NCBI GenBank assembly: GCA_951406725.2
Contig: OX597822.1
Location: forward strand, 80,352,001-80,416,000
DNA: 64,000 bases
Source of the DNA: Octopus vulgaris
Taxonomy: Eukaryota
Direction: 5' to 3'
Shown here: one piece after another, positions 9,425 through 49,565 of the stretch
How positions within the stretch are numbered: position 1 is the first letter of the stretch
How the letters are laid out: each line of letters begins with the position of its first letter
Notes under the pieces: model-generated
Told to the model about the DNA's origin: nothing
Database searches by the model: none
The model's input: the letters and a program-made list of their open reading frames with translations, nothing else
Made by a program: the position numbers and the translations under genes

Positions 9425-9618
9425 GAGATGAGCTGCTAGATGCTGACTGAAAGAGTGAGAGAAAGTTGTGGCGAAAGAGTCAGTAGAAGTTCCTTCTGCC
9501 GGAGCCGTGTGGAACGTAGGTGTTTCGTTCATAAACAAACTCATCGCCCAGTCTGAGATTCGAACCCTCGATGCCTTGACCGCGAGTCCGCTTCACTGAC
9601 CACTAGACTATGTGCCTC

Positions 9619-46451: not shown

Positions 46452-46798
46452 GGTAAAGGGTAAAGATCCCCTTCGGCTATTAATAACCATGGGATTGCAC
46501 CTAGAAAGGTACACTCCGAGGCACAAGCCCGGGCAAGAGTGTGTATGGAAAACCAGCAATCACCCATGCATGCTAGCCTCCCCTCTTCACGCCACCAATG
46601 TTATCCAAAGGAAAGGCAAAAGCTGACACAGCTTGGCACCAGTGACATTGCAACTCATTTCTACAGGTGTGTGAACAGGGGCAACATGAAATAAAATGTC
46701 TTGCTCAAGAACACAACACACAGAACGGTGCAGGAAACGAACTCACTACCCTATGATTGTGTGTCCAATGCTTTAAACGCTGAGGCTTGCGCCTTCAC
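46452..46798 (-). mobile_element. tRNA/CORE SINE with a distinct 3' tail
   Basis: Reverse complement head gtgaaggcgcaagcctcagcgttt...gtgagttcgtttcc, CORE-like gtgttcttgagcaagacatt, tail ending ctttacccttta. Confidence 0.75.
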
Positions 46799-47726: not shown

Positions 47727-48597
47727 GTAATAATAACCTCGTAACTATAAAAAAAGATGTGCAACAGCAACAGGAATTCGCATCGATTTCGAAAGTGAAA
47801 CAAAACAAAAAACAAAGAAACCCAAGCAATGTGGGCGTTCTTGGAGAACAAAAGCTAAATAATGGATAATGACGTTGGAGCTTAAGAAAAAACCTCTGAG
47901 TTTGTATTAAATAATTAATTAATTTACAGGAAGTGGAACCTGCAAGGAAGAAAAACGGTAAAGTGCCGGCGTTTATATGAAGTATATATATTCATTTGTT
48001 TTCTTCTTTTTCGATTCGAAATTCTGTTGCTTTGTATTGATTATCTTTCATCTTGTATCGTTTGTCTTCTGCGTTTTACTGGTGTCGCTCATTGGACTGC
48101 GGCCGTGTTGGGGCACCACCTGGAAGGGCGTCGTCCAACAAATCGAATCCAGTACATATTCCTTTAAGTCTGGTACTGTTTTTGTCGGTCACATGACTGG
48201 TCTTAGAGATGTTTATAGGTTCGCCGCTACGTCGACTGCGAGGCCGCACAGACATGTGTGCAAAAATGTCCCCCAAATTCCAGGTTTCCCACTCCACCTA
48301 TGTTCAGCGAACACCACAGATGAAGCAAGGGTAATCAAAGTAAATACTTTCATACAAAAGTACGGACCAAGACTTAACAAACTTCAACAGTGTACACAGA
48401 CAACTATTCAGACACAAAACTCATTCTGCCACTTAACGTGAGAAACCTACACAGCTAATAACCTACGCTATAGTCACAGAACTACATACAAACGATTTCT
48501 TCCGTTCTCCCACCAGACATATTAATTTTGGAATGCCTTGATTAACTAAACATGTTCATTCAACCGTGTCGGCCTCATTTTTAGGCTAAAAATATAC

Positions 48598-48740
48598 TCA
48601 TTATTTACATTTGACAGATATTTGTCCTCATCGTGTTTGTTGTTAACACAACTTTTCGGCTGGTATGCCCTCCAGCCTTCATCAGGTGTCTTGGGGAAAA
48701 TTTCGAACTTGGGTTCTCATTCCTAAGGTATATTCCGATG

Positions 48741-48829
<89 letters not shown>

Positions 48830-48877
48830 ATTGTTGTTGTTGTTGTTGTTGTTGTAGTTGTTGTTATTATTATTATG

Positions 48878-48944
<67 letters not shown>

Positions 48945-49054
48945 TCTCTGTCTGGAAACGAACTGGGAATCTTGGGGTTAGTAGACCGTGCTCCTGTAAT
49001 GTAAATAATATAAATAATGTATATAATTCCTCATCTCTTAAATATAGAACTGTA
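48598..49054 (-). mobile_element. tRNA-headed, hammerhead-tailed non-autonomous retroelement
   Basis: Minus strand: tRNA-like segment with B-box (48941-48994), (AAT/AAC)n, HHR-bearing tail; inverted copy of the tail end (aatgtaaataat) beyond the head. Confidence 0.7.
48645..48690 (-). ncRNA. minimal type-I hammerhead ribozyme
   Basis: GACAC CTGATGAA GGCTGG-agggcata-CCAGCC GAAA A GTT GTGTT: intact core, perfect 6-bp stem II, stem I GACAC/GTGTT; GAAAA is found where GAAAC is usual. Confidence 0.8.
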
Positions 49055-49565
49055 TTATCAAAATATACTGTCACGTGACACTAACTCCCGGATGTAGCGG
49101 GAAACGTACAAAAATGTTATAACTTAATCATATGTTCCTTCTCTACCGACACTTGACAAAAAACATTTAAAGCATAGATTGTTTGAATGAGTTCGGTCCA
49201 CCGTATCAACCTTAACATACGACGCCAAACATTGTCACTTGATACGGACGTAGCGGGTAACCTATGAACATTTCTAAAACCAGTCATGTGACTATCCTCT
49301 ACCAATAACATCCTATTCAAAACATACTAAAATGAACCATGAACTCCCTATAAAAATAGGGGCAAGCTTCAAACACTATTCAGAAGCAAGACAGCTGCAA
49401 CATATGCCACGTCTTTCTATTTCAACTTTTTGAAAATCAGTGAAAACTGTGAAACCAGTTAAAGCTTTAAATATATTAATAATAAAAATATTTTAACTAT
49501 TCTCAGTGCATTTCCAACTTCTATTTTTCCTTTATTTCTACCCGTGTGGACTAAAACAACTCTGT

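What the first reader, a model, noticed from the sequence alone, without database searches (positions are those of the whole stretch)
48598..49054. SINE-like chimera: tRNA head + (AAT)n + hammerhead tail, with a Penelope-style inverted end
Seen on the minus strand: a truncated tRNA-like segment (gagcacggtctactaaccccaagattcccagttcgtttcc, with B-box), an (AAT/AAC)n spacer, then a tail with a minimal type-I hammerhead (GACAC CTGATGAA GGCTGG/CCAGCC GAAA AGTT GTGTT) ending ...caaatgtaaataa. Immediately beyond the head, aatgtaaataat reappears inverted and extends about 55 bp further. Established: PLE pLTRs carry minimal HHRs, PLE insertions often have inverted partial pLTRs at the 5' junction, and most SINEs borrow LINE tails. 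Inference: this is a Pol III-driven, ribozyme-bearing non-autonomous parasite of Penelope-like elements rather than of LINEs, an unusual SINE/retrozyme hybrid.
Basis: partly seen in the sequence, partly recalled or inferred. Interest (0 to 1): 0.85.

Follow-up and report, generated by a model that had tools for sequence, protein, structure and literature searches.

The report
Penelope retrotransposon with captured tRNA promoter

Summary
The parts are real, but they are not a separate SINE. Head, (AAT/AAC)n and hammerhead tail together form the pseudo-LTR of an autonomous Poseidon/Penelope-clade element. In 25 of 30 endonuclease-anchored copies the head follows the stop codon, typically 36 nt after it. 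In 5' repeats the 'tail' runs into an 834-aa RT/GIY-YIG frame, so the tail and the hammerhead are the first codons of the ORF. The window copy is a standard inverted PLE insertion: 10-bp target duplication, empty site found, one arm ending at each of two family 3' ends about 34 nt apart.

The tRNA head is the new part. Exact 20-mer counts jump from 865-903 upstream of it to 5,148 inside it, and 24 of 30 copies start within -8..+7 of tRNA position 1. The family's A and B boxes match the recalled consensus. The 2.65-kb sense strand has no TTTT (3-4 expected, P 0.01-0.03; controls carry many). Pol III transcription is inferred, not shown. A 5' palindrome and a TATA-like motif are rivals, and RNA-seq did not decide. 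Short and ORF-linked copies share age and subfamily markers. The window copy has lost its A box and has mutated B-box and ribozyme bases.

The parts
48589..48598 (.). target-site duplication, left copy (10 bp)
   Evidence: identical 10-mer at 49060-49069; present once at the joined empty site in 4 of 5 homologs of the host repeat
48599..48720 (-). first ~121 nt of the PLE ORF (ATG at 48720), ending at the family's 'short' 3' end; frameshifted by one extra T in this copy
   Evidence: aligns to the family unit; continues into the RT ORF in L271, L278, L261, L268, L260, L265, L274; 3' ends bimodal
48645..48690 (-). minimal type I hammerhead inside the ORF start; predicted cut after 48650; stem III C>A change in this copy
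   Evidence: activity not tested
48721..48741 (-). short leader between the microsatellite and the start codon
   Evidence: conserved in family copies
48742..48939 (-). (AAT/AAC)n spacer, length variable between copies
   Evidence: sequence; spacers of about 7-160 nt in copies without nested inserts
48940..48993 (-). 5'-truncated tRNA-derived head (family positions 23-76); A box lost; B box at 48965-48954 with one change
   Evidence: family head matches a profile of this genome's tRNAs in register (E 7e-6); this copy alone E 0.32
48998..49059 (+). inverted arm: last 62 nt of the pseudo-LTR including the ~34-nt PLE 'tail', ending at the family's 'long' 3' end
49060..49069 (.). target-site duplication, right copy (10 bp)

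Best explanation
The feature is a short, doubly truncated insertion of the pseudo-LTR of a Poseidon/Penelope-clade retrotransposon whose repeat unit begins with a captured tRNA-derived segment that likely serves as an internal RNA polymerase III promoter. Shown: the unit is tRNA head, (AAT/AAC)n, ATG, hammerhead within the first codons, 834-aa RT + GIY-YIG ORF, 36-nt UTR, then the next head. 3' ends fall at two sites about +123 and +157 nt into the ORF. Most copies start at the head. Inverted insertions pair one short with one long end inside an 8-16 bp target duplication. Inferred: RNA starts about 7 nt before the head. The element's protein starts reverse transcription inside the ORF's 5' part, as shown in vitro for the anole element PAc. 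Priming at the 5' copy of that signal would give about 300-nt head-spacer-ribozyme cDNAs (the SINE-like majority), and priming at the 3' copy would give ORF-bearing copies. Priming on both cut strands would give inverted pairs like this one. The ribozyme is likely not cut in the template. The short copies are likely by-products of the same master loci, not a self-renewing SINE lineage.
For: Head after the ORF stop in 25 of 30 GIY-YIG-anchored loci, tail downstream in 27 of 30. 5' repeat runs into the ORF N-terminus, and the only two 5' repeats that reach the head (L271, L278) begin at it. Three copies have repeat sequence at both ends of the ORF. Majority ORF is 834 aa without a stop; it is 37% identical to an 836-aa Anolis protein and 57-76% to its closest fetched relatives, and relative P0005 has the same ribozyme-coded peptide. 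20-mer counts: ORF -200 nt 903, UTR 865, head 5,148, ribozyme 7,812. 5' ends at -8..+7 in 24 of 30 and 23 of 30 loci (five loci shared between the sets, some are two arms of one insertion) and in about 14 of 20 copies without an inverted arm (counted by eye). 229 of 269 3' ends fall in two clusters. 70 of 83 inverted pairs are long+short; duplication of 8 bp or more in 42 of 83 against 3 of 408 shuffled. No T4 run in the 2,649-nt sense unit; in the 2,502-nt ORF 3.0-4.3 expected, P 0.03-0.01. Controls: other GIY-YIG ORFs of this genome have 8, 8 and 1; 39 related PLE stretches of 1.2 kb or more have 215 observed against 169 expected, two with zero, none of the nine over 2 kb. No tRNA-like head behind the ORF in any of 80 related loci (46 have enough 3' sequence by my count). 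Divergence 4.8% vs 4.4% and a shared subfamily in 28 ORF-linked and 75 short copies.
Against: No direct evidence of Pol III use. In three RNA-seq runs (about 6% of each read) reads lie equally in both orientations, 86-87% run on into unlike sequence, no ends pile up, and ORF depth is a few hundred-fold below the repeat, much as in the contig run. A sharp 5' border with a palindrome also occurs in PLEs with no tRNA segment reported, and those have TATA/Inr-like motifs (PMC3846280, passages). Here a 12-nt palindrome spans the border and a TATA-like motif lies 34 nt upstream. The T4 result is modest, rests on a majority sequence, and one related intact PLE has only 1 run in 2.36 kb (L337). The 20-mer profile uses one word per position. 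Uncapped Pol III RNA is a poor message and SINE-length limits argue against a 2.9-kb Pol III transcript (PMC10886601, passages). No intact copy appeared among the 150 best endonuclease hits (longest frame 362 aa), so the family may be silent.
Confidence: 0.6

Rival explanations
1. Same architecture, but the tRNA segment is a passenger. A Pol II promoter (TATA-like motif at the ORF stop) or fold-back at the border palindrome sets the 5' end, as in ordinary PLE pseudo-LTRs.
For: TATA-like motif 34 nt upstream of the head and a palindrome across the border. Rotifer Penelope pLTRs of 193-218 bp have 5' palindromes and TATA/Inr motifs. Several copies show 1-3 nt of fold-back at the border. Pol II gives a capped, translatable RNA (established knowledge).
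Against: Does not explain the A and B boxes kept in tRNA register while the cloverleaf decayed, or the absence of T4 over 2.65 kb. The step also holds in copies without an inverted arm.
Confidence: 0.27
2. An independent Pol III SINE that renews itself from dispersed short copies and borrows the PLE protein in trans, with the autonomous element having the same head.
For: Short copies outnumber ORF-bearing ends about 6 to 1, start at the tRNA 5' end and many keep both boxes (673 exact matches of a 32-mer with the A box).
Against: No short-only diagnostic change in 75 vs 28 copies; same age; linked subfamily in both. PAc needs ORF sequence downstream of its priming sites (first 172 nt; PMC11167929), which short copies would lack by analogy.
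Confidence: 0.1
3. A retrozyme-type element that cleaves at the hammerhead and amplifies through circles or tandem arrays, or a chance nesting of a tRNA SINE, a microsatellite and a PLE fragment.
For: A minimal hammerhead with a palindromic stem III is present in the family; animal retrozymes derive from PLE pLTRs (bioRxiv 2026.07.22.740005).
Against: 0 of 269 3' ends and 3 of 269 5' ends lie within 4 nt of the cut site. Copies are dispersed and mostly inverted pairs, not arrays. Head and tail co-occur in 27 of 30 loci.
Confidence: 0.03

Closest known systems
Poseidon/Penelope-clade PLEs, e.g. PAc of Anolis carolinensis (PMC11167929, parts 1-2 of 4 read)
   Same: Single RT + C-terminal GIY-YIG ORF, pLTR overlapping the ORF start, minimal hammerhead at the start codon, two internal RT start sites bounding a 30-40 nt tail, no insertion ends at the ribozyme cut, inverted 5' arms, 8-16 bp duplications.
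   Different: tRNA-derived head with A and B boxes and an (AAT/AAC)n leader at the start of the repeat; T4-free sense strand; about six-fold excess of copies starting at the head.
Sm-alpha / Sj-alpha SINE-like elements of Schistosoma (passages in PMC6765202 and PMC2770079; primary papers not read)
   Same: tRNA-related, apparently Pol III-transcribed repeat carrying a hammerhead, at tens of thousands of copies.
   Different: Described as non-coding, often tandem and released by self-cleavage, with no autonomous partner named in the passages read. Here the unit is the end repeat of a protein-coding element and the ends ignore the cut site.
TRIMp3 elements Cassandra, Helenus, Ajax (PMC10886601, passages)
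   Same: A small-RNA-gene-derived Pol III promoter captured inside a terminal repeat.
   Different: Those are non-autonomous LTR elements of 0.3-1.3 kb; that paper expects their autonomous partners to use Pol II. Here the autonomous element carries the head.
Animal non-LTR retrozymes (bioRxiv 2026.07.22.740005, parts 1-3 of 5 read)
   Same: Short hammerhead-bearing repeats derived from PLE pLTRs.
   Different: Defined as tandem arrays; no tRNA head mentioned in the parts read.

Membership tests
Poseidon/Penelope PLE | single ORF with RT and C-terminal GIY-YIG, no Zn-finger linker | tested here: met
   834-aa majority ORF with RT motifs and terminal endonuclease, no CxxC linker by inspection; RVT_1 in a real copy. 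Pfam GIY-YIG did not hit the L179 fragment, so the endonuclease call rests on motifs and homologs
Poseidon/Penelope PLE | phylogenetic placement in the clade | tested here: inconclusive
   groups with the Anolis protein apart from the genome's Zn-linker PLEs, but only a quick tree with no named reference clades; that P0042 is PAc is my inference
Poseidon/Penelope PLE | pLTR overlapping the ORF start, with direct and inverted arrangements | tested here: met
Poseidon/Penelope PLE | optional 30-40 nt tail and short target duplication | tested here: met
   two 3' end clusters about 34 nt apart; duplications of 8-16 bp in 42 of 83 pairs
Poseidon/Penelope PLE | minimal type I hammerhead in the pLTR | tested here: met
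   core and stems present; fully intact core in 27 of 103 copies plus 6 with the tolerated position-7 change
Poseidon/Penelope PLE | ribozyme self-cleavage | not testable with these tools
   needs an in vitro assay
tRNA-derived SINE | tRNA-derived head with A and B boxes | tested here: met
   family head matches genome tRNA profile in register, E 7e-6; best of 30 sampled tRNA genes is Arg(TCG), then Arg(TCT) and Ala(TGC), not decisive; box consensus recalled
tRNA-derived SINE | transcribed by Pol III | not testable with these tools
   only indirect signs; RNA-seq did not decide
tRNA-derived SINE | head foreign to the autonomous partner; only the tail shared | tested here: not met
   the autonomous element has the same head at both ends
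tRNA-derived SINE | own lineage of master copies | tested here: inconclusive
   no short-only markers in 103 copies, small sample
non-LTR retrozyme | head-to-tail arrays of two or more hammerhead units | tested here: not met
   84 of 106 head+tail copies have an inverted neighbour, 20 are direct, 2 ORF-linked; one direct tandem seen (L014)
non-LTR retrozyme | unit ends at the cleavage site / circular RNA | tested here: not met
   insertion ends avoid the cut site; no end pile-up in RNA-seq; circles not testable directly

The most novel reading that the evidence does not exclude
An autonomous, protein-coding retrotransposon transcribed end to end by RNA polymerase III from a captured tRNA promoter. 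Its 2.5-kb ORF was purged of TTTT terminators, its unstructured (AAT/AAC)n leader supports cap-independent translation, and internal priming on its own RNA spins off thousands of SINE-like copies. It would be a SINE and its 'LINE' in one unit, and a direct route by which hammerhead-bearing tRNA SINEs such as Sm-alpha could arise.
Probability: 0.35. Interest if true: 0.9.

Novelty: new variant of a known kind. Interest (0 to 1): 0.7.

Why it matters
How PLEs are transcribed is still open, and autonomous retrotransposons are assumed to use Pol II (or Pol I read-through for R2; recalled). A PLE with a tRNA head, a sharp start at that head and a terminator-free ORF makes three questions testable with one 300-nt construct: which polymerase, whether an uncapped ribozyme-bearing RNA can be translated, and how SINE-like families arise from a PLE. 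The long+short pairing of inverted arms (70 of 83) also gives genomic support for priming on both strands from the two RT start sites seen in vitro for PAc. For annotation, roughly 20,000 such units in this genome (rough estimate) would be mislabelled as a tRNA SINE.

Tried and rejected
Pfam GIY-YIG search of the genome returned other PLE families. None of 50 fetched loci shares the tail. My scripts label them 'Naiad', but RT, then Zn-finger-like linker, then C-terminal endonuclease makes them Neptune/Nematis-like; they served only as controls. An early idea that the tail encodes a PLE C-terminus was wrong: it encodes the N-terminus. Rfam and ARAGORN do not recognise head or ribozyme. The source tRNA was not identified: only 30 tRNA genes were sampled, with no Arg(ACG/CCG) among them. 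Viral contigs held no relative. The run search listed no holder on record as RNA. Laying three RNA runs and one contig run showed no start or cut site. The careful tree did not finish. The 3' UTR came from only two copies through a filter error; it was redone on 24 copies with the same T4 result. Literature: nine searches listed no paper on a tRNA-headed or Pol III-transcribed PLE; most hits were seen only as listings. Repbase, Dfam and subscription journals could not be searched, so the family may already be deposited as a Penelope or SINE consensus. The 1994 octopus OK/OR1/OR2 SINE paper is recalled only and was not compared. Supplements of the bioRxiv preprint are closed, and PMC supplements were not opened. 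Three look-ups in earlier scan findings returned nothing.

Full report
Observation. The window lies in a 2.8-Gb, microsatellite-rich animal assembly (G000); my guess of an octopus is recalled from size and repeat content and was not tested. A 10-bp direct repeat flanks the whole (48589-48598, 49060-49069). It occurs once at the joined site in 4 of 5 homologs of the surrounding repeat, which fixes the insertion's ends. Alone the ribozyme pattern is weak (16 of 100 shuffles give a match), and Rfam and ARAGORN miss both ribozyme and head.

Family. Tail and inverted piece each retrieve many genomic copies, and the inverted piece is the family's own 3' terminus. The tail follows the head in 27 of 30 loci picked by a head 32-mer. 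The family ribozyme reads CTGATGA...GAAACGTT with a palindromic stem III (32 of 59 copies; intact core in 27 of 103). The window copy has C>A there. The family head has an A box at +8 and a B box at +51 that match the recalled consensus. It matches a profile of this genome's tRNAs in register (E 7e-6). The best of 30 sampled tRNA genes is Arg(TCG), only slightly ahead of Arg(TCT) and Ala. The window copy lacks the A box and has a changed B box, so it is likely inert.

The partner is the element itself. Seven of the 30 head-anchored loci continue upstream into shared sequence, and the longer ones translate to a GIY-YIG C-terminus. Searching with it gave 150 scored copies, none intact. Among 30 fetched, 25 have the head after the stop, typically 36 nt after it, and 27 have the tail further on. 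Searching with the N-terminal part gave copies whose 5' end is the same repeat running straight into the ORF. L271 and L278 begin at the head. L278, L265 and L274 have repeat sequence at both ends. The majority ORF is 834 aa without a stop and starts 21 nt after the microsatellite, so the hammerhead and the whole 'tail' are coding. Homologs include an 836-aa Anolis protein (37%) and closer unnamed proteins (57-76%), one with the same ribozyme-coded peptide. The other GIY-YIG families in the genome do not share the tail.

Insertion mechanics. Of 269 tail segments, 111 end near ORF +123 and 118 near +157. None ends, and three start, within 4 nt of the ribozyme cut. Of 83 candidate inverted pairs, 70 join one short and one long end, and 42 have a duplication of 8-16 bp against 3 of 408 shuffled pairings (a few loci gave more than one candidate pair). 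The window copy has this form. This matches PAc, where RT starts at two internal sites in the ORF's 5' part that bound the tail, both strands are cut and extended, and ribozyme mutants do not affect insertion (PMC11167929). It also matches rotifer Penelope anatomy (PMC3846280). These features are ordinary for PLEs.

What is not ordinary. (1) No tRNA-like segment follows the ORF in 80 related PLE loci from metagenomes (46 have 200 nt or more behind the ORF end by my count). (2) Exact 20-mer counts are flat at 903 and 865 from 200 nt to 15 nt upstream of the head, then 5,148 in the head and 7,812 in the ribozyme. 5' ends lie at -8..+7 of tRNA position 1 in 24 of 30 and 23 of 30 loci and in about 14 of 20 copies with no inverted arm. 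(3) I noted the prediction that a Pol III template should lack TTTT before testing it. The 2,649-nt sense unit has none. In the ORF 3.0-4.3 are expected by three shuffles (P 0.029, 0.020, 0.012), while three control ORFs of this genome have 8, 8 and 1. Related PLE stretches show 215 runs against 169 expected; 2 of 39 have zero, both with low expectation, and the lowest over 2 kb has one. At the 13 TTT sites only 26 of 409 copy observations have a fourth T, so the majority does not hide a terminator. (4) Short and ORF-linked copies are equally diverged (4.4% and 4.8% outside CpG) and share a three-marker subfamily.

Mechanism. Most likely RNA starts just before the head. Because the RT priming signal lies about 120-160 nt into the ORF, every transcript offers a priming site near its own 5' end, which would yield 300-nt SINE-like copies, and tandem masters offer a second site after the ORF. 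This explains the six-fold step, the shared subfamilies and the two full-length copies that start at the head. That Pol III makes the RNA is inferred from the boxes, the start position and the missing terminators. How the protein is made is open: Pol II read-through could supply it, or the unstructured leader could allow cap-independent initiation (analogy to CAA-rich viral leaders, recalled).

Against. A palindrome spans the 5' border and a TATA-like motif lies 34 nt upstream, as in PLEs without a reported tRNA segment. RNA-seq from three runs shows abundant reads in both orientations, 86-87% running into unlike flanks, no end pile-up, and ORF depth a few hundred-fold lower. This fits read-through of embedded copies and says nothing on the promoter; whether that organism is the same species as G000 is unknown. 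Long Pol III transcripts are considered unlikely for retroelements (PMC10886601).

Relation to known elements. tRNA-related SINE-like repeats with hammerheads are known in schistosomes. Pol III promoters inside terminal repeats are known in non-autonomous TRIMs. pLTR-derived retrozymes are known. Nine searches found no report of an autonomous PLE with a tRNA head, with the limits given above. Verdict: a real, new variant of the Poseidon/Penelope kind; the SINE label fails one defining test; Pol III use is likely for the repeat (about 0.6) and possible for the whole coding unit (about 0.35).

Noticed in passing
window about 48188-49292: The insertion sits inside another dispersed repeat with inverted ends (48188-48233 vs 49247-49292), 337 first-look candidates, about 80-84% identical; possibly a non-autonomous DNA transposon.
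   Followed up: partly
L109, L110, L067, L072 and relatives: A young Neptune/Nematis-like PLE family with many intact 781-aa frames, plus at least four related families; a few have hammerhead-like motifs (L095, L098).
   Followed up: partly
L157, L164: ORF end joined to the microsatellite with the tRNA head missing after nearly the same point in two copies: recurrent deletion or a relic of the state before capture.
   Followed up: no
window 14241, 22195, 30553, 34870, 58698, 61298: Diverged copies of another short interspersed repeat, also seen at about 48070-48190; other tRNA-like heads at 46732-46784 and 9554-9614.
   Followed up: no
family ORF start: A 9-nt repeat near the short 3' end varies in number without breaking frame. 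Of the three subfamily markers, one falls at the variable ribozyme position 7 (Asp to Glu) and one is synonymous.
   Followed up: partly
L326, L324: Related PLEs from metagenomes show clear partial-tandem 5' repeats with the hammerhead upstream of, not inside, the conserved N-terminus.
   Followed up: no
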